A DNA stretch of 50,015 bases from Clostridia bacterium (GTDB taxonomy: Bacteria > Bacillota > Clostridia > TANB77 > CAG-508). The notes below the pieces were generated by a model, which worked only from the letters and a program-made list of their open reading frames with translations, was not told the origin of the DNA and did not search any database. Every line of letters starts with the position of its first letter. The first letter of the stretch is position 1. Below are positions 730 through 49,340 of this stretch, piece after piece. The position numbers and the translations under genes are program-made. Where the stretch lies: NCBI GenBank assembly GCA_022796725.1, contig JAAWJE010000017.1:1-50015 (forward strand), read 5' to 3'.

Positions 730-2037
730 ATGAATATAATTAGCATACTTTCTAAAAAAAGAAAGAAAGAAAAATTATCAAAAGATGAAATTGATTATTT
801 TATAAAAGAGTATTTAAGAGAAACAATAGCAGAAGAGCAAGCATCAGCACTAATTATGGCAATGTGCATAAATGGTTTGGATAAAGAAGAAATAAAAGAC
901 TTAACTAATGCTTTGGTAGAATCTGGTGAAAAACTTGATATGTCAGATGTTTCTGGAAACTTTATTGAAAAACATTCTGTAGGAGGAGTTGGAGATAAAG
1001 TAACACTTATTCTACTTCCAATACTTTCAGCATTAGATATTCCAGCGGGTAAATTTAGTAGTAGAGGAATTGGAATAGGAGGAAGTACAGCAGATAAGCT
1101 TATGTCAATACCAGGTTGTAGAGCTGATATTACAATTGAAGAATACAAAGATAATTTAAAAAATGAAAAAATAGGAATAACTTCTAGCTTATTAGATATA
1201 GCAACTGGAGAAAAGAAAATATATGATATAAGAAGAAAAATAGATTGTATGGATAATTTAGATTTAGCAGCAGCTAGTATAATGAGTAGAAAAATTGCAT
1301 CAGGAGCTAAGAAATTACTTATAAATATACAATGTGGACATGGTTCAACAATTAAAAATTATAAAACTGGTAAGGAGTTTGCAAGAAAGTTAATAGAATC
1401 TGGAAGTTTAGATGAAAAAGAAGTAAGATGTGTAATTTCAAAAATATATGAACCTTTAGGAAGAAATATAGGAAATACATTAGAAATAATAGAAACAGTA
1501 GAAGCATTAAAAGGTAATATAGAAAAAGACGTAAAAGAAGTTGTTATGGAAGTAGGAATACAAATTATTTTAATGTCTGGAAAGGCTAAAAAAGAATCAG
1601 AAGCTAAAAAAATGATAGAAGAAGTAATAAAAAATGGTAAGGCGTTAGAGAAATTTAAAACTTTAGTAAGACTGCAAAATGGTGATATATCTTATATAGA
1701 AGATACAAAAAAGCTAGGAGAAGCAAAATACAAAATGGAAATTAAGGCTAACAAAACAGGATATATTCAAATGATAGATTCAGAAAGACTTGGAAATATT
1801 GCTGTATATTTAGGAGCAGGAAGGAAGTTATATGATGATGAAATAGATAATCAGGCAGGAATAACTTTAGTAAAGAAAATGGATGATAAAGTAAGAAGCG
1901 GAGAAACTATAGCATATATTTACACAAATGATGAATCAAAATTAAAAGGAGCTTCAAATAATTTTTTAGAAGCCTATACTATAGGAAAGAAAATGTTTAA
2001 TAAAGGTAGTGCAGTACTTGGAGTAATGACAAGATAA
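730..2037 (+). CDS. pdp: Pyrimidine-nucleoside (thymidine) phosphorylase
   Basis: 435 aa; KHSVGGVGDKVTLILLP phosphate-binding motif and length typical of the family; AGGAG SD 8 nt upstream. Confidence 0.85.
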   Translation: MNIISILSKKRKKEKLSKDEIDYFIKEYLRETIAEEQASALIMAMCINGLDKEEIKDLTNALVESGEKLDMSDVSGNFIEKHSVGGVGDKVTLILLPILSALDIPAGKFSSRGIGIGGSTADKLMSIPGCRADITIEEYKDNLKNEKIGITSSLLDIATGEKKIYDIRRKIDCMDNLDLAAASIMSRKIASGAKKLLINIQCGHGSTIKNYKTGKEFARKLIESGSLDEKEVRCVISKIYEPLGRNIGNTLEIIETVEALKGNIEKDVKEVVMEVGIQIILMSGKAKKESEAKKMIEEVIKNGKALEKFKTLVRLQNGDISYIEDTKKLGEAKYKMEIKANKTGYIQMIDSERLGNIAVYLGAGRKLYDDEIDNQAGITLVKKMDDKVRSGETIAYIYTNDESKLKGASNNFLEAYTIGKKMFNKGSAVLGVMTR

Positions 2038-34524: not shown

Positions 34525-34548
34525 AACATAAGAAAAATATAATAAATA

Positions 34549-34692
34549 TATTATCAAGAGTGGATGAGAGAATCGGCTTTATGACTCCACAGCAACCTGT
34601 ATAAGACAAGGTGCTAATACCGACAAAGCAAAGTGCTTTGAATGATGAGTAAGAGATTTAAACCTTTGCAAAATTTAAGCAAAGGTTTTTTA
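34549..34692 (+). promoter_or_regulatory. SAM-I (S-box) riboswitch with expression-platform terminator
   Basis: TTATCAAGAG...GGCTTTATGACTCC...AGCAACC...AAGGTGCTAATACC...GATGAG matches the conserved SAM-I core. Terminator aacctttgc/gcaaaggtt plus T6 at 34660-34692, immediately upstream of metK. Confidence 0.85.
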
Positions 34693-34725: not shown

Positions 34726-35871
34726 ATGAGAAAATTATTTACATCAGAAAGTGTAACAGAAGGACACCCAGATAAAGTATGTGATTATATATCAGATAGT
34801 ATATTAGATAGTTATTTGGAAAAAGATAAAAATTCAAGAGTAGCTTGTGAAACAGTAGCAAGTAAAGGTGAAATCATTGTAACAGGAGAGATTACTTCAA
34901 ATGCAGAAGTAGATATTGAGAAAATTGTAAGAAATACTTTAAAAGAGATAGGATATGATAATGAAAATACAGATATAGACTATAGAACATGCAATGTCCA
35001 TATAAATATTTCTAAACAATCAAGTGATATTGCAATGGGAGTAGATAATTCACTTGAAAGTAAAAATGGTATTTCAAAACAAACAGAAGGTGCAGGAGAC
35101 CAGGGAATTATGTTTGGTTTTGCATGTGATGAAACAGAGGAATTAATGCCACTTCCAATTTATTTAGCACATAAATTATCTAAAAGATTAACTACTGTTA
35201 GAAAGGAAGGAATTATTGACTATCTAAGACCAGATGGCAAAACTCAAGTAACAGTAGAGTATAAAGGAAATGTTCCTGAGAGAATAGATACAGTAGTAGT
35301 ATCTACTCAACATAAAGATAATATAGAGATGAATAAATTAAGAGAAGATATAAAAAGAGAAGTTATAGATAAAGTATTACCAAGTAATTTGATAGATGAT
35401 AATACAAAATATTTTATAAATCCAACTGGTAGATTTGTTATAGGAGGACCTCTAGGAGATAGTGGACTTACAGGAAGAAAAATAATAGTAGATACTTATG
35501 GAGGATATAGCCGTCATGGAGGAGGAGCTTTTTCAGGTAAAGATTCTACTAAAGTAGATAGGTCAGCATCATATATGGCAAGATTTATAGCAAAAAATAT
35601 CGTAGCAAATGGATTTGCAAAAAAATGTGAGATACAACTTTCTTATGCAATAGGAGTAGCAAAACCTATTTCAATATTTGTAGATACATTTGGAACTTAT
35701 ACAATACCAGAAGAAGAGATAGTAAAAAAGATATATAAAATATTTGATTTAACACCAAGAGGAATCATAGATTATTTAGAATTAGATAAACCAATTTATA
35801 AGTCTACTACTAATTATGGACATTTTGGAAAAAAAGAACTTGCATGGGAAAAAGTAATAAGTATTAAATAA
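34726..35871 (+). CDS. metK: S-adenosylmethionine synthetase
   Basis: [25 protein letters not shown] and GGGAFSGKD invariant motifs. Confidence 0.95.
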
Positions 35872-45189: not shown

Positions 45190-48100
45190 ATGAAATCAAT
45201 TAGTACAAAAAGAATTACTTTAGTCGTTGTACTTTCTATGATTATTTTGTTGTCATTATCTCAAAGTGTATTTGCAGCTAGTAAATCTGTATCAAAAGTA
45301 AAAAACGTAAAAGTAAAGACGAAAACAACATCAAGTATTACAGTAAAATGGAAGAGAAATCCTTACGTAACAGGATACAGAGTATATATGAAAAAACGGA
45401 AAAAATTCAAAATATACTAGAATAGTAACAATAAAGAATAGAAATATAACATCATATAAGAAGAGAGGATTAAAAGAAGGTAAGAAATATTACTTTAAGG
45501 TAAGAGCATATAGACAAACTAGAAACTCTAAAAAATTTGGAGCATATTCAAAAGTTATAAAAGCTCAAACTAAAAAAAGACTTTCAAAACTTAAGTTAAG
45601 TGTAAATACATCTTCAAAGAAATATACTAGAAAAGCTATAAAAACAAAAGTATCAATAAAAGATGGTAAAAAGACATTAAAATATAAAAAAGATTATACT
45701 GTAAGTTATAAAAATAATGTTAATCCAGGAACAGCAACAGTAATTATTAAAGGAAAAGGCAATTATACAGGAACAATTAAAAAGAAATTTAAAATAGTAG
45801 TAGGAAAAATAAGTAATTTAAAGGTAAAAAGCCAATCATCATCTGATGTAACTTTAGGATGGAATAGAGATCCAGTTGTAACAGGATATGAAGTATATAT
45901 GGCAACTAGTAAAGGCGGAAAATATAGTAGAATATCAACAATTACTAGAAATAGTGTAACATCATATAAAAAGACAAAACTAACAAAAAATAAAACATAT
46001 TATTTTAAAGTAAGAGCATATAAAATAGTAAAAGGAAAAAAGAAATATGGCGCATATTCAAATATTGTAAGTGCAACACCAAAAGAAAATGCAGTAGGAA
46101 ACTTAAATATTATGCAAAGTATGATAAAAAATAATACTTTAACAGTTGAAAATAAAACTTACTTAAATGTTACAATTTCACAAGATGTAAAAGAAGATTC
46201 ACAAATTAACTTAAATAATATTACTATAAAAGGAAAATTAACTTTAAATGAACCAAAAAGATATAGATTAAATATTACAAATACAAATTTAAGCAATATG
46301 GAAGTAGTAAAAGTAGCTACAAAGGCATATAATGCAGCAAATGTATATAATCAAATAATTGATGGTCCAACTGTTAATTTTGAAAATTGTAGCAATATGA
46401 AAAAAATAGATATTAATGGAAATATTGAAATTAATGGTGCAAATACAGCAGAAACAATAAATATTAATTCTGGAAGCGAAATATCATTAGGTATTCCTTC
46501 TAATGAAGTTATTGTAAATTCAAATCCAGTAGACTCAGTGATAGCAATTAATAAAGATGTTAAGAATATTGTTAATAAAAAAGATAATGTTAATTTTATG
46601 ATTAATTCTAATATTAATGATATAACAAACAATGGAAAAAATAGCAAAATAATGATATCTACTGATAAAAAAGTAAGCAATTTAGCAAATAATGCTGAAA
46701 ATACATTTATTTCTGGAAAAGGAAGTATTGAGAAATTAACAATTTCAGAAAATGCAAAAAATACAAAAGTTTTTGTTAAAACTACAACTCAGCCAGTAGT
46801 AGAAGCAGATGATACTTTTATATTAGAAGAAAAAGACTTTGCTATACAATCAGTAGAGCCAAAAAGTCAAGGAAATGTTACATTTACTTTAAACAAACCA
46901 ACTTCAAAAAAATTAACTCTTGCAGATGTTTCTATATATTGTGGAAGAGGAAGTGAAACAGCTATCTTTTCTATTGAAAGTAAAGATAATAAGACATATA
47001 ATTTAACAACATCATATTATAAAGATGGTATATTTGGTTTATATGTAACATTACCAAATGGAAATATTATAAGTAAAGATTTTAAATGTGAATATTCAAA
47101 TCCAACAGTTAATAAATCAGTAGTAATAAGAACAGCAAAAGACAAAGCAGAATTAGAATTATATGGTGTTGATGAAGGTGGATATTTATATTATGTTTTA
47201 GAAGCTCCAGGTGCACAAAATATAAATCAAGCTCATATTAAAGCAAAAGGAACAAAAGTACAAGTAAAAACAGAATATAATAAAATTAATATATCTGGTT
47301 TACAAGAAGGTAAATCTTATGAATTATATTATGTAATAGAAGGATTTTATAAAAATACTTCTAGTGTAAAAGGACCAATTGAAGTACCAAGTAAAGTACA
47401 AGAAGTTGATAAAAGTGATATTTTTATAGAATATGCAGCAGAAGAAAGTTGTAATACATTTGTAATTAGATTAAATAAAGTACCTGAAAAGAAACTTGTT
47501 TTATCAGATTTTAGTATTAAATGTCCAACTCAATCAAAATTAACAATATCAGGTGCAAAATTTACAACAAGTGTAGATAGATTAACTTATTATTTAAAAG
47601 TTCCAGATAATTATGGGCATAAAGATAATAAATATACAGTTGAAGTAAATGTTGGAAGTAAAAAAATAAATAAATCTTTTGTTTCACATTTTGACCCTCC
47701 AGCAATTACTGGTGAAAAAATAACTAGAACTGGTAAAAATGAAGCTAAATTAACATTTAATTCTGATGAGCCAGGAAAGATGTATTATGGTGTTTATGAG
47801 TGGAATAGAGGAATATATGTAGGAGATTCTACAACTCCACTTGCAGAAAATGTACTAAAAGCAGTAGCAAATGGAACATTAGCAAAAGAACCACTTAAAG
47901 GAAAAGAAAAGGTTCTTGTAGCAGGACCAAATGATTTAACTGTTGATTTAAGCAATATAGAAATAACAAGAACAACAAGAATATGGGTATTATTTGTTGA
48001 TAATGCAGGAAATTATAGAAATGGTTTTGTTTCACATTTTGGAAGTATTCCAGAATATGTAGGCGGAGGAGAAGAAGAAAATAAAAGTACATTAAAGATT

Positions 48101-48358
48101 ACATCAGTTGATGTTACTAACAAAAGTATTAAAATTAATTTTAATGAGGAAATAGGTTATATGGGAAATTCTGATATAGAATTACAAGGAAGTGGTCTTC
48201 CAGCTAAGATAACTTATAGTACTTCTTTAGAATCTAAGAGTGCATATATTGAATTATTAAACTGTACATTATCAGCAGGAAAATATAAAATAATAATAAC
48301 ACCAACAGATTCAAAGGATAATGTTGTTACATTAGAATATGAATTTGAGATAAAATAG
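45190..48358 (+). pseudogene. Large secreted Fn3/Ig-like repeat surface protein interrupted by a +1 frameshift in an A-tract
   Basis: A signal peptide plus the start of an Fn3 module ends at TAG 45418. The frame open from 45392 continues the same Fn3 module (KNGKNSKYTRIVTIKNRNITSYKKRGLKEGKKYYFKVRAY...) and runs with no ATG into track ORF 45899..48358. The shift window 45392-45417 contains two A6 runs. Confidence 0.7.
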
Positions 48359-48411: not shown

Positions 48412-48499
48412 GTGGTGTCAAAAAGATGTAAAATACATTAAAAAATGATATCAAAAAAGTGTAAAAGATATTTGAAAGTGGTATTAAAAAAATGCAAAA
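48412..48499 (+). repeat. Three 22-bp direct repeats phased at exactly 33 bp
   Basis: GTGGTGTCAAAAAGATGTAAAA (48412), ATGATATCAAAAAAGTGTAAAA (48445), GTGGTATTAAAAAAATGCAAAA (48478). Consensus: rTGrTrTyAAAAArrTGyAAAA. Confidence 0.7.
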
Positions 48500-48552
48500 T
48501 AAAATATTAATACTCCTAATAAAAGTTTATGCAATAAATAAACTCATAGTGT

Positions 48553-48581
48553 TTGACAAAAGAGAAAAATCTATATATAAT
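48553..48581 (+). promoter_or_regulatory. Perfect-consensus sigma-A promoter (P-left of the IR cassette)
   Basis: TTGACA (48553-48558), exactly 17 nt, then TATAAT (48576-48581). No CDS lies downstream; the predicted TSS is near 48588, inside the left inverted repeat. Confidence 0.65.
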
Positions 48582-48585
48582 AAAA

Positions 48586-48615
48586 ATAGAAAATGAGAAT
48601 AAGCAGAGTGTGTTG
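48586..48615. repeat. Left arm of the perfect 30-bp inverted repeat
   Basis: atagaaaatgagaataagcagagtgtgttg. Its reverse complement is found exactly at 48862-48891. Confidence 0.95.
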
Positions 48616-48672
48616 TCCGAATAAAACTTAAATAACCGTTTACTCGACCAAAAGCAGAACGGTTATTTTTTA
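48588..48672 (+). ncRNA. Predicted ~85-nt small RNA (candidate antisense/antitoxin RNA)
   Basis: It starts about 7 nt after the consensus -10 and ends at the intrinsic terminator (10-bp stem 48631-48640/48658-48667 plus a T-run). It has no ORF or SD. Its 3' ~40 nt are antisense to the 3' end of the convergent small ORF transcript. Confidence 0.4.
48631..48672. terminator. Bidirectional intrinsic terminator shared by convergent transcripts
   Basis: aataaccgtt/aacggttatt 10-bp stem with a 17-nt loop. T6 follows on the + strand and TAAGTTTTATT on the - strand. Confidence 0.6.
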
Positions 48673-48786
48673 TTGCCTATGTAGTAAAAAACAGATGATG
48701 ATTAACAAGGCAATATTTATGATAGTTACTCCTACTAATCCATAGAGAAGTAGGTATGTAATAGTTGTTATTGATGTTTCTACCAT
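48670..48786 (-). CDS. 38-aa hydrophobic peptide (candidate type I toxin-like membrane peptide)
   Basis: My translation: MVETSITTITYLLLYGLVGVTIINIALLIIICFLLHRQ. SD GGGGGTGG 5 nt upstream of the ATG; one predicted TM; the stop codon abuts the terminator hairpin. Below the ORF-track cutoff. Confidence 0.4.
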   Translation of the reverse strand: MVETSITTITYLLLYGLVGVTIINIALLIIICFLLHRQ

Positions 48787-48861
48787 ATTAACCACCCCCA
48801 TATATCAATCTCACAAACTAAGTTGTGGAGGGTTATGTATAATCTAAGATGTAAAAGGTGG

Positions 48862-48891
48862 CAACACACTCTGCTTATTCTCATTTTCTAT
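48862..48891. repeat. Right arm of the perfect 30-bp inverted repeat
   Basis: caacacactctgcttattctcattttctat is the exact reverse complement of 48586-48615; 246-bp spacer. Confidence 0.95.
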
Positions 48892-48892
48892 G

Positions 48893-48921
48893 ATTATAAC
48901 TATACAACTTTATTATAAGAA
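48893..48921 (-). promoter_or_regulatory. Candidate weaker sigma-A promoter (P-right) driving the small-ORF transcript
   Basis: On the minus strand, TATAAT (48898-48893) lies one nt outside the right IR arm. The -35 at 17-nt spacing is a poor TTCTTA. Confidence 0.3.
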
Positions 48922-49062
48922 ATACAAGCGAACATTCAAAGATTATTTTTATTAATTATAAAAAAGAAAAGAATAGTAAAATATTTAAGAAAGTAATGTA
49001 TGAATAATATCAATAGTGATATTTTCTATAAACAGTTTTCTAAAAGGTAACTTGTATAAATA

Positions 49063-49139: not shown

Positions 49140-49340
49140 AATTGATTTGCTATGAAGATGAAAAGTAATAGACAATATTATTTTATAGAGAATAAATGCC
49201 AAGGCTGAAAGCATTTTAAATAATACTATTATGAAACACATTGGAGCAAAGATTATAAGGTGGGAATATATTTCCAAATAGGGTGGTACCGCGGAGGAAT
49301 AATCTTTCGTCCCTTTTATAGGGATGAAAGATTTTTTGTT
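49140..49340 (+). promoter_or_regulatory. T-box riboswitch leader
   Basis: Stem I with AGTA/AGAGA elements. Conserved T-box AATAGGGTGGTACCGCGG at 49277-49294. Terminator atctttcgtccct/agggatgaaagat plus T6 at 49303-49338. Immediately upstream of an aminoacyl-tRNA synthetase gene. Confidence 0.85.

What the first reader, a model, noticed from the sequence alone, without database searches (positions are those of the whole stretch)
48586..48891. 306-bp cassette bounded by perfect 30-bp inverted repeats, each abutting an outward-lying promoter
Positions 48586-48615 and 48862-48891 are exact reverse complements (30/30), separated by 246 bp. Each arm begins 1-5 nt downstream of a -10 hexamer lying outside the cassette: consensus TATAAT with TTGACA on the left, and TATAAT with a weak -35 on the right. 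Both convergent transcripts therefore start with the same ~25-28-nt leader. The interior holds a bidirectional terminator, a small RNA and a 38-aa ORF. I see three readings. (a) It is a site-specific invertible switch that swaps which cargo is read from the strong promoter; the promoter-outside, terminator-inside logic recalls the C. difficile cwpV switch, and the recombinase would act in trans. (b) It is a foldback element: readthrough of either transcript yields a 30-bp intramolecular 5'-3' duplex, like hok fbi-type control and an RNase III target. (c) It is a MITE-like insertion. No recombinase or transposase lies in the window, and I see no obvious target-site duplication (flanks taaaa / gatta).
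Basis: partly seen in the sequence, partly recalled or inferred. Interest (0 to 1): 0.8.

Follow-up and report, generated by a model that had tools for sequence, protein, structure and literature searches.

The report
Toxin-antitoxin RNA pair with matching leaders
The 306-bp "cassette" looks like a small toxin gene and its antisense RNA antidote, transcribed towards each other from related promoters; the perfect 30-bp inverted repeat is a recent mutation seen only in some strains, not a DNA switch or a jumping element.

Summary
The 30/30 inverted repeat is real. The arms are the first ~30 transcribed bases of two convergent genes. One is a minus-strand mRNA for a 38-aa hydrophobic peptide with a masked ribosome-binding site. 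The other is a ~90-nt plus-strand sRNA. They share a bidirectional terminator, which is the layout of a type I toxin-antitoxin module. I found 47 related loci in uncultured gut Clostridia. Nearly all have homologous promoters and leaders on both sides, but only as an imperfect repeat: the longest exact run is 15 nt or less, against 30 nt here. Ten contigs of the same species all show the same orientation. Eight of them carry a left arm that differs at 48600-48603 (ACA instead of TAAG). That version forms the 5' stem-loop found in 40 of 42 family antitoxin RNAs. The perfect repeat is therefore a recent, strain-level cluster of changes copied from the toxin arm (template switch or short gene conversion), and it destroys that stem-loop. 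Inversion, MITE and a selected 30-bp readthrough foldback are not supported. Newly inferred: the toxin leader is complementary to the loop and 5' arm of its own terminator, and it co-varies with them. The toxin peptide and the sRNA match no Pfam, NCBIfam or Rfam family. Toxicity and transcripts are untested.

The parts
48553..48581 (+). Antitoxin-sRNA promoter: -35 TTGACA (48553-48558), 17-nt spacer, -10 TATAAT (48576-48581)
   Evidence: A 12/12 consensus match. TTGACA and TGTATAAT are nearly invariant at this position in the family alignment.
48586..48615 (+). Left arm, the 5' leader of the antitoxin sRNA (ATAGAAAATGAGAATAAGCAGAGTGTGTTG)
   Evidence: The predicted start is about 48586-48589, from promoter spacing only.
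48600..48603 (+). Strain-polymorphic patch. It reads TAAG here and in 2 conspecific contigs, and ACA in the other 8. ACA restores the stem-loop AACACA-GAG-UGUGUU.
48586..48675 (+). Putative antitoxin sRNA (~90 nt): leader, spacer, terminator hairpin and U-run
   Evidence: Folding. Homologous 84-95-nt RNAs in 42 loci.
48631..48667 (.). Bidirectional intrinsic terminator. The stem is AATAACCGTT / AACGGTTATT; a strong T-run follows on the + strand and an interrupted one on the - strand.
   Evidence: Conserved in the family, with different stems in subgroups.
48670..48786 (-). 38-aa hydrophobic peptide ORF (putative toxin), MVETSITTITYLLLYGLVGVTIINIALLIIICFLLHRQ, stop codon included
   Evidence: Synonymous differences are in excess in this frame: 37% against 18% and 13% in the shifted frames.
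48792..48799 (-). Shine-Dalgarno sequence GGGGGTGG, 5 nt upstream of the ATG at 48786
   Evidence: Read directly from the sequence. GGTGG is invariant in 25 of 25 aligned sequences.
48812..48827 (-). Conserved hairpin in the 5' UTR (CACAA...TTGTG) between the anti-SD and the SD
   Evidence: In the RNAalifold consensus, 4 of its 6 pairs show compensatory changes.
48854..48861 (-). Anti-Shine-Dalgarno CCACCTTT, immediately 3' of the right arm
   Evidence: The consensus structure pairs CCACC with GGTGG in all 25 sequences. The SD is masked in every single-sequence fold.
48862..48891 (-). Right arm, the 5' leader of the toxin mRNA
48860..48876 (-). Leader segment AAGCAGAGTG (48876-48867) plus TGTTGCC (48866-48860), complementary to the toxin mRNA's own 3' region
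   Evidence: The same duplex topology appears in nearly all loci. The swap test is block-diagonal. A second toxin family shows the same feature.
48652..48677 (-). Target of the leader on the toxin mRNA: CGTTCTGCTT (terminator 5' arm and loop, 48661-48652) and GGCAATA (stop-codon region, 48677-48671)
48899..48927 (-). Toxin promoter conserved in the family: -35 TTGTAT (48927-48922), 17-nt spacer, -10 TATAGT (48904-48899)
   Evidence: Family alignment. This promoter is weaker than the antitoxin promoter.
48622..48891 (-). Putative toxin mRNA (~270 nt). It overlaps the sRNA by about 54 nt at the 3' ends and is predicted to stop short of the left arm.
   Evidence: Both ends are predicted from sequence only.

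Best explanation
The cassette is a chromosomal type I toxin-antitoxin-like module of a family not found in Pfam, NCBIfam or Rfam or in a limited literature search. A weak promoter (TTGTAT/TATAGT) drives a ~270-nt minus-strand mRNA for a 38-aa membrane peptide. A consensus promoter drives a ~90-nt plus-strand sRNA. The two converge on a shared terminator, so their last ~54 nt are perfectly complementary. By analogy with txpA/RatA and bsrG/SR4, the abundant sRNA would pair there and cause degradation or silencing of the toxin mRNA (inferred). The toxin mRNA also silences itself: CCACC, just after the arm, pairs with the ribosome-binding site (supported by the consensus fold). The two arms are the 5' leaders of the two RNAs. 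In the whole family these leaders and their promoters are homologous, but only as an imperfect inverted repeat. The shared parts are AUAGAAAAUGAGAA and GUGUUGCC. Between them the antitoxin has a short stem-loop, while the toxin has AAGCRGAGUG, which is complementary to the loop and 5' arm of the toxin's own terminator. That is the same site the antitoxin's terminator loop recognises, so the leader probably masks or competes for the antitoxin's entry site (inferred). In this strain a 3-change cluster (ACA to TAAG) copied the toxin-arm sequence into the antitoxin arm. This is a template switch or short-patch conversion between near-identical inverted repeats. It made the repeat perfect and abolished the antitoxin's 5' stem-loop. 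The perfection itself is a recent mutational by-product, not a designed feature.
For: Anatomy. Family: 47 loci encode the same 37-39-aa peptide, with two convergent promoters and a shared terminator, and the ORF shows a coding signature. Masking of the SD by CCACC, around a hairpin with 4 compensatory pairs. Leaders are homologous on both sides in nearly all loci, but the longest exact inverted run is 30 nt in the window and 15 nt or less in the 43 other loci. Forty of 42 antitoxin RNAs have a 5-6-bp stem-loop with compensatory variants (AACCAC/GUGGUU, AAUCAC/GUGAUU, AACUAC/GUAGUU); the window RNA lacks it. Conspecific contigs: same orientation in 10 of 10. Eight of 10 carry ...GAGAAACACAGAG..., and the rest of the intergenic region is nearly identical. 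Complementarity of the toxin leader to its own 3' region recurs with the same topology. It tracks terminator changes between subgroups, with own-group duplexes of about -17 to -21 kcal/mol against about -8 to -17 across groups. It also recurs in a second toxin family on the same RNA scaffold. Template-switch mutations that extend the identity of imperfect inverted repeats are an established class (PMC7202029, PMC3820800).
Against: No transcript, toxicity or RNA-RNA interaction has been measured, and all RNA ends are predicted. The peptide lacks the charged C-terminal tail typical of many type I toxins. The toxin-leader duplex has only modest z-scores against shuffles (about -0.1 to -4.4), and one locus (L014) pairs poorly. 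Pairing into the terminator stem would compete with the terminator hairpin. Why AUAGAAAAUGAGAA is nearly invariant at the 5' end of both RNAs remains unexplained. The window toxin has L where more than 90% of relatives have F (position 14), so the module may be attenuated. The converted allele occurs in 3 assemblies, so it is not obviously deleterious.
Confidence: 0.7

Rival explanations
1. Invertible promoter-swap switch. A recombinase acting in trans flips the interior between the 30-bp arms, exchanging which cargo the strong promoter reads.
For: Perfect 30-bp inverted repeats with promoters just outside them.
Against: The orientation is identical in 10 of 10 conspecific contigs from different samples, and 8 of them lack perfect arms. 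In 43 other family loci the arms share exact runs of 15 nt or less, and the consensus promoter is always on the sRNA side. No recombinase domain was found in the 20 window ORFs of 250 aa or more that were scanned. Inversion would put the toxin under a consensus promoter.
Confidence: 0.03
2. Readthrough foldback. The arms are selected to form a long 5'-3' intramolecular duplex when either transcript reads through the terminator, giving an RNase III target or an fbi-like lock.
For: The terminator T-run on the toxin strand is interrupted (TATTTAAGTTTTATT), so some readthrough is plausible. The family arms keep two conserved blocks that could still pair imperfectly.
Against: A perfect 30-bp duplex exists only in this strain lineage. 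The central part of the arms differs systematically between toxin and antitoxin in the family. The toxin leader has a nearer, co-varying partner in its own terminator.
Confidence: 0.07
3. DNA operator. The shared AUAGAAAAUGAGAA block at +1 to +14 of both promoters is a binding site for one regulator that co-controls toxin and antitoxin transcription, and the inverted symmetry follows from that.
For: The block is nearly invariant at both promoters across the family and in a second toxin family with the same scaffold. No convincing RNA partner was found for it.
Against: No candidate regulator is linked to the loci. The exact motif occurs nowhere else in the window, and near-matches are only mildly enriched, 15 against 7.4 expected. 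This does not explain the rest of the arm.
Confidence: 0.12
4. MITE-like or other mobile insertion bounded by terminal inverted repeats.
For: The family is multicopy in some MAGs, sits in different genomic contexts, and is often at contig ends.
Against: The unit encodes a conserved peptide under purifying selection plus two promoters and a terminator. The 'terminal repeats' are transcribed leaders that are imperfect in relatives. Multicopy dispersal is usual for type I toxin-antitoxin loci.
Confidence: 0.02
5. This is not a toxin. It is a benign small membrane protein whose mRNA is regulated by a cis-antisense sRNA.
For: There is no homology to any known toxin. The peptide has only a very short polar tail (HRQ).
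Against: The architecture has all the hallmarks of type I modules: a weak toxin promoter against a consensus antitoxin promoter, double masking of the SD, multicopy spread, a frameshifted copy that keeps an intact sRNA, and a sister family with a classic charged-tail peptide on the same RNA scaffold.
Confidence: 0.12

Closest known systems
par (Fst RNA I / RNA II) of Enterococcus faecalis pAD1 and its chromosomal relatives
   Same: Convergent promoters, a bidirectional intrinsic terminator whose complementary loops offer a kissing site, an intramolecular structure that masks the toxin SD, and repeats near both 5' ends (PMC7472228).
   Different: In par the repeats are direct (DRa/DRb), so the two RNAs are complementary at their 5' ends. 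Here they are inverted, so the two RNAs carry the same sequence. The peptide lacks the PXXXG motif and charged tail and has no Pfam Fst match.
Bacillus subtilis txpA/RatA and bsrG/SR4 (3'-overlapping type I modules)
   Same: A small hydrophobic peptide, an sRNA that overlaps the toxin mRNA's 3' end by convergent transcription, and a likely degradation-based mechanism (PMC6563280).
   Different: No sequence similarity to the toxins was detected. Shared promoter and leader homology between toxin and antitoxin is not a feature described for those systems in the reviews consulted here.
hok/sok fbi-tac pairing and Helicobacter AapA1/IsoA1 5'-3' long-distance interaction
   Same: The toxin mRNA's 5' leader is complementary to its own 3' region, and this could mask the antisense target or lock the mRNA. 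This comparison rests on general knowledge of those systems.
   Different: The partner here is the loop and 5' arm of the terminator itself. There is no mok-like coupled reading frame: the leader ORF is only 10-13 codons in most relatives. There is no Hok homology.
Quasipalindrome-associated template-switch mutations
   Same: A tight cluster of changes (one insertion and two substitutions within 4 nt) makes an imperfect inverted repeat perfect by copying the other arm (PMC7202029, PMC3820800).
   Different: The arms are 246 bp apart, further than in the classic short-hairpin cases, so short-patch gene conversion is an equally good description.
Site-specific invertible switches (C. difficile cwpV/RecV type)
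   Same: Inverted repeats flank a regulatory segment with a terminator inside and a promoter outside.
   Different: There is no orientation polymorphism, the repeats are not conserved among strains, and no recombinase is nearby.

Membership tests
Type I toxin-antitoxin module (generic) | Small (<60 aa) hydrophobic, membrane-type peptide ORF with its own SD | tested here: met
   A 38-aa ORF with one long hydrophobic stretch and the SD GGGGGTGG. It is conserved in 47 loci and shows a coding signature.
Type I toxin-antitoxin module (generic) | A cis-encoded antisense sRNA gene overlapping the toxin mRNA | tested here: met
   A consensus promoter plus intrinsic terminator defines a ~90-nt RNA that overlaps about 54 nt of the toxin's 3' end. 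It is conserved in 42 loci. This is sequence evidence only, with no expression data.
Type I toxin-antitoxin module (generic) | The peptide is toxic when over-expressed and the sRNA neutralises it | not testable with these tools
   This needs an expression experiment.
par / Fst-RNA I-RNA II | Convergent promoters and a shared bidirectional terminator | tested here: met
par / Fst-RNA I-RNA II | Direct repeats (DRa/DRb) transcribed in opposite directions, giving 5' complementarity over the toxin start site | tested here: not met
   The repeats are inverted, so the leaders are identical in sense. No consistent pairing of the sRNA 5' part with the start region was found.
par / Fst-RNA I-RNA II | An Fst/Ldr-type peptide (PXXXG(C) motif, charged C-terminal tail) | tested here: not met
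   The consensus has no proline, the tail is HRQ/HKQ, and no Pfam match was found for any of 27 members.
hok/sok | A 5'-3' fold-back (fbi/tac) in the toxin mRNA | tested here: inconclusive
   A co-varying leader-to-terminator complementarity exists, but its formation and effect are untested.
hok/sok | An overlapping mok-like reading frame that couples translation | tested here: not met
   The 34-codon leader ORF that ends on the toxin start is unique to the window. Relatives have 10-13 codons or no AUG.
Site-specific invertible DNA switch | Both orientations are found in the population | tested here: not met
   Ten of 10 conspecific contigs are collinear with the window. Only assemblies were examined, not raw reads.
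Site-specific invertible DNA switch | The inverted repeats are conserved as the recombination sites | tested here: not met
   The arms are imperfect in 8 of 10 conspecific contigs and in all other family loci.
Site-specific invertible DNA switch | A cognate tyrosine or serine recombinase | tested here: inconclusive
   None was found in the 20 window ORFs of 250 aa or more that were scanned. The rest of the genome could not be seen.
MITE | A non-coding element with terminal inverted repeats and a target-site duplication | tested here: not met
   The element encodes a conserved peptide and two promoters. The flanks taaaa / gatta are not a duplication.

The most novel reading that the evidence does not exclude
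The same-sense leader shared by toxin mRNA and antitoxin sRNA is a functional mimic. The toxin leader carries a copy of the antitoxin's recognition hexamer (AAGCAG) and occupies the toxin's own terminator loop. Access of the antitoxin would then be gated by a cis competitor. The common AUAGAAAAUGAGAA 5' block would recruit one factor (an RNase, a chaperone or a transcription regulator) to both RNAs. Conversion between the arms, as seen in this strain, would then be a built-in way to retune the toxin-antitoxin balance. This would be a mode of type I control not described for par, txpA or hok.
Probability: 0.15. Interest if true: 0.6.

Novelty: new member of a known kind. Interest (0 to 1): 0.35.

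Why it matters
It removes a false lead: the repeat is neither a phase-variation switch nor a mobile element. It also documents a widespread type I toxin-antitoxin-like family in uncultured gut Clostridia that current annotation misses. The toxin was called as a gene in only one of 5.8 billion clustered proteins, and there is no Rfam or Pfam model. Very few type I systems are known in Clostridia outside C. difficile. The family shows an unusual design: homologous promoters and leaders on both RNAs, and a toxin leader complementary to its own terminator loop. The locus also gives a clean natural example of a templated mutation cluster that perfects an inverted repeat and at the same time removes a conserved RNA stem-loop.

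Tried and rejected
1. mok-like translational coupling. In the window a 34-codon ORF starts at the AUG inside the leader and stops on the toxin start codon. In relatives it is 10-13 codons or has no AUG, so the idea was rejected.
2. Trans pairing of the sRNA 5' part with the toxin mRNA. The best duplex sites differ from locus to locus. The sRNA 5' end pairs with codons 12-15 (UUUUCUAU) in about half of the loci, but weakly (-5 to -8 kcal/mol), not in the window, and confounded by codon conservation. This is unresolved and was not used.
3. RNAalifold on MAFFT alignments of the sRNA gave no structure, because the loop lengths put the columns out of register. I used per-sequence folds instead.
4. 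Two metagenome-contig scans returned nothing: one for the antitoxin arm carrying the toxin patch, and one for a 35-nt stretch common to both alleles. The second pattern is present in JGI contigs L050 and L054, so that collection simply lacks these samples and the zeros are uninformative.
5. The phage and plasmid searches gave only a ~53-nt, 80-83% match of the toxin promoter and leader to an intergenic region of C. difficile phages, with E about 3e-3 in the phage search and 8e-3 in the plasmid search. This was not pursued.
6. Rfam, Pfam, NCBIfam and PDB sequence searches gave no family for the RNAs or the peptide. A literature search for the peptide motif gave no hits.

Full report
OBSERVATION. 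The window contains the repeat exactly as described. Positions 48586-48615 and 48862-48891 are perfect reverse complements (30/30). The match extends to 36 nt at 94%, with 246 nt between the arms. A 28-nt core of the arm occurs only at these two places in 50 kb, and none is expected by chance. A 12/12 sigma-70 promoter (TTGACA-17-TATAAT, 48553-48581) ends 4 nt before the left arm. A TATAAT at 48898-48893 abuts the right arm. The interior holds a 38-aa minus-strand ORF (48786-48670) with the SD GGGGGTGG, and a hairpin at 48631-48667 followed by T-runs on both strands.

WHAT IT IS. Read on both strands, this is the layout of a type I toxin-antitoxin module. A ~270-nt minus-strand mRNA encodes a very hydrophobic 38-aa peptide. 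A ~90-nt plus-strand sRNA comes from a consensus promoter. The two converge on one bidirectional terminator, so their 3' ends overlap by about 54 nt. No Rfam family matches the RNAs. No Pfam, NCBIfam or PDB sequence matches the peptide. The peptide has a single relative among 5.8 billion clustered proteins, because such ORFs are rarely called as genes. A back-translated scan of 185,579 species genomes found 47 loci, all in uncultured gut Clostridia MAGs, apparently from mouse, rabbit, ruminant and human samples judging by the record titles. They encode M[VI]E...LLFYGLVG[VI]TIIN.ALL.II..LLH[RK]Q. Synonymous differences make up 37% of codon differences in this frame, against 18% and 13% in the shifted frames, so the ORF is translated and under purifying selection. 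Some MAGs have two copies, one locus has a frameshifted toxin with an intact sRNA, and many loci lie at contig ends. This pattern is typical of type I modules.

THE ARMS IN THE FAMILY. Aligning the region upstream of the toxin gene with the reverse complement of the downstream region shows that the two promoters and leaders are homologous in nearly every locus, with 43-50 identities over about 54-69 nt in the better-aligned loci. The common parts are the -10 region (TGTATAGT on the toxin side, TGTATAAT on the sRNA side), AUAGAAAAUGAGAA at the 5' end of both RNAs, and GUGUGUUGCC. The middle differs systematically. The toxin leader has UAAGCRGAGUG. The sRNA has a 5-6-bp stem-loop in 40 of 42 loci, with compensatory variants AACACA/UGUGUU, AACCAC/GUGGUU, AAUCAC/GUGAUU and AACUAC/GUAGUU. 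An imperfect inverted repeat is therefore a family trait. The longest exact inverted run is 30 nt in the window and 15 nt or less in the 43 other loci.

THE DECISIVE COMPARISON. The neighbouring 819-aa protein is encoded with an identical sequence on contigs from many samples. Ten of these were fetched: JGI, ENA, Logan, and NCBI GCA_949443805.1. All ten are collinear with the window, so none shows an inversion. Only two of them (Logan SRR29686471 and SRR29686445) carry the perfect repeat. The other eight read ATAGAAAATGAGAA-ACA-CAGAGTGTGTTG in the left arm: T48600 is absent, A48602 is C, and G48603 is A. The rest of the ~1-kb intergenic region and the toxin ORF are otherwise almost identical. 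The ACA allele forms the canonical stem-loop AACACA-GAG-UGUGUU (-4.2 kcal/mol). The window allele does not. Because every other family member has the stem-loop, ACA is the ancestral state. Three clustered changes that make one arm identical to the other are the signature of a templated event. That event would be a replication template switch at a quasipalindrome or a short-patch conversion between inverted repeats, and both are documented classes of mutation (PMC7202029, PMC3820800). In the ancestral allele of this species the arms already matched over 14 nt and 12 nt on either side of the patch, which would favour such an event. The allele appears in three independent assemblies, so it is not an assembly artefact.

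HOW THE MODULE PROBABLY WORKS. Shown by comparative analysis: the toxin SD is masked. The RNAalifold consensus pairs CCACC (48861-48857, immediately after the arm) with GGUGG of the SD in 25 of 25 sequences. This helix encloses a hairpin in which 4 of 6 pairs show compensatory changes. Every single-sequence fold also masks the SD. Inferred from complementarity and co-variation: leader nucleotides ~15-33 of the toxin mRNA (AAGCRGAGUG and UGUUGCC) pair with the mRNA's own 3' region, namely CAUUCUGCUU (terminator 5' arm and loop) and GGCAAUA (stop-codon region). The topology is the same in nearly all loci. Subgroups with different terminators have matching leaders: GCAGAUGUGU pairs with ACACAUUUGC in L038, and UGUGAGUGCU or GUAAUGGGUGCU pairs with AGCACCACA(UUAC) in L044 and L048. 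A leader/tail swap matrix is block-diagonal. A second, unrelated toxin (MSFILFLILALMASVTLNVALLTVCYIQYVNKIIDKD) sits on the same RNA scaffold and shows the same feature against its own terminator. The hexamer AAGCAG in the toxin leader is the same hexamer that the sRNA's terminator loop presents to the toxin's loop CUGCUU. The leader may therefore mask or compete for the antitoxin's entry site, in the way hok's fold-back hides the Sok target. By analogy only: the sRNA pairs over the ~54-nt 3' overlap and triggers RNase III-type decay, as in txpA/RatA and bsrG/SR4 (PMC6563280). Unexplained: why AUAGAAAAUGAGAA is nearly invariant at +1 to +14 of both genes. No consistent RNA partner was found for it, so a shared protein or operator site remains possible.

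CONSEQUENCE OF THE PERFECT REPEAT. The converted sRNA loses its conserved 5' stem-loop and gains a single-stranded copy of the toxin-leader segment. This could weaken the sRNA, for example through lower stability. It could also add a second seed against the toxin's terminator loop. The data cannot say which. The window toxin has L14 where more than 90% of relatives have F, but this is shared by all conspecific contigs and is not linked to the allele.

(a) An invertible switch is not supported. There is one orientation in 10 of 10 conspecific contigs, the arms are degenerate in strains and relatives that keep the interior, the consensus promoter is always on the sRNA side, and no recombinase domain was found in the 20 window ORFs of 250 aa or more that were scanned. 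The neighbourhood is housekeeping: enolase, metK, a dinB-like polymerase, SipL, YceG and aspS. (b) A readthrough foldback is right in spirit, as hok-like RNA control, but a 30-bp duplex is strain-specific and the leader's co-varying partner is the terminator. (c) A MITE is not supported. The unit is a coding, promoter-bearing module with no target-site duplication.

COMPARISON WITH KNOWN SYSTEMS. The closest architecture is par/Fst, with convergent promoters, a bidirectional terminator, SD masking and repeats near both 5' ends (PMC7472228). In par, however, the repeats are direct and make the RNAs complementary. Here they are inverted and make the RNAs alike, and the peptide lacks the Fst hallmarks. 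The 3'-overlap logic matches the txpA/bsrG modules, but no sequence homology was detected. The 5'-3' complementarity recalls hok and AapA1, but there is no mok-like frame. I therefore file the locus as a new family of a known kind (a type I toxin-antitoxin-like module). It has one architectural peculiarity, the shared same-sense leaders, whose function is open.

VERDICT. The interpretation as a switch or a MITE is refuted, and the hok-like reading is partly right. The perfect repeat is ordinary in origin, a recent templated mutation. The underlying family and its leader-terminator complementarity are of moderate interest. Interest 0.35. Confidence in the overall explanation 0.7. Confidence that the perfect repeat is a strain-level derived allele is above 0.9. 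Confidence in the leader-masking mechanism is about 0.4.

Noticed in passing
L021:1603-1716 and L031:2568-2681 (with flanks): A second, unrelated 37-aa toxin candidate (MSFILFLILALMASVTLNVALLTVCYIQYVNKIIDKD, with a charged tail) sits on the same RNA scaffold. It has the same antitoxin promoter and AUAGAAAAUGAGAA leader plus stem-loop, a different terminator stem, and a toxin leader complementary to that terminator. This suggests a modular superfamily.
   Followed up: partly
L004:937-1047; L018 about 1780-1912 (minus strand): L004 carries a frameshifted toxin copy next to an intact antitoxin gene. L018 carries two modules on opposite strands. Several MAGs have two copies, and many loci end at contig edges.
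   Followed up: partly
window 34548-34651 (+): A SAM riboswitch (75.8 bits, above the gathering score) lies upstream of the S-adenosylmethionine synthetase ORF at 34726-35871.
   Followed up: no
window 49143-49317 (+): A T-box leader lies upstream of the aspartyl-tRNA synthetase gene that starts at about 49377. It scores 82 bits with E 5e-18, just below Rfam's gathering score of 93.
   Followed up: no
window 48418-48501: A 33-nt unit repeated 2.5 times (76% matches) lies in the AT-rich spacer upstream of the antitoxin promoter. The conspecific contig L056 has a 14-nt deletion there (48440-48453).
   Followed up: no
L001:1501-1554 (Clostridium phage phiCD506 and related C. difficile phages and phage-plasmids): An intergenic stretch whose reverse complement reads TATAATCATAAAATGAGAATAAGCCGA resembles the toxin promoter and leader (80-83% over about 53 nt, E about 3e-3 in the phage search). 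It could be chance or a shared leader motif.
   Followed up: partly
window 45899-48358 (+): An 819-aa ORF directly upstream of the cassette has no Pfam domain, yet is encoded with an identical sequence on contigs from many samples (the index lists it in 44 blocks of the collection).
   Followed up: no
window 48745-48747 (toxin codon 14): The window species has Leu (CTC) at a position that is Phe in more than 90% of family members (LLFYGLVG becomes LLLYGLVG). All 10 conspecific contigs share it, so the toxin may be attenuated.
   Followed up: partly
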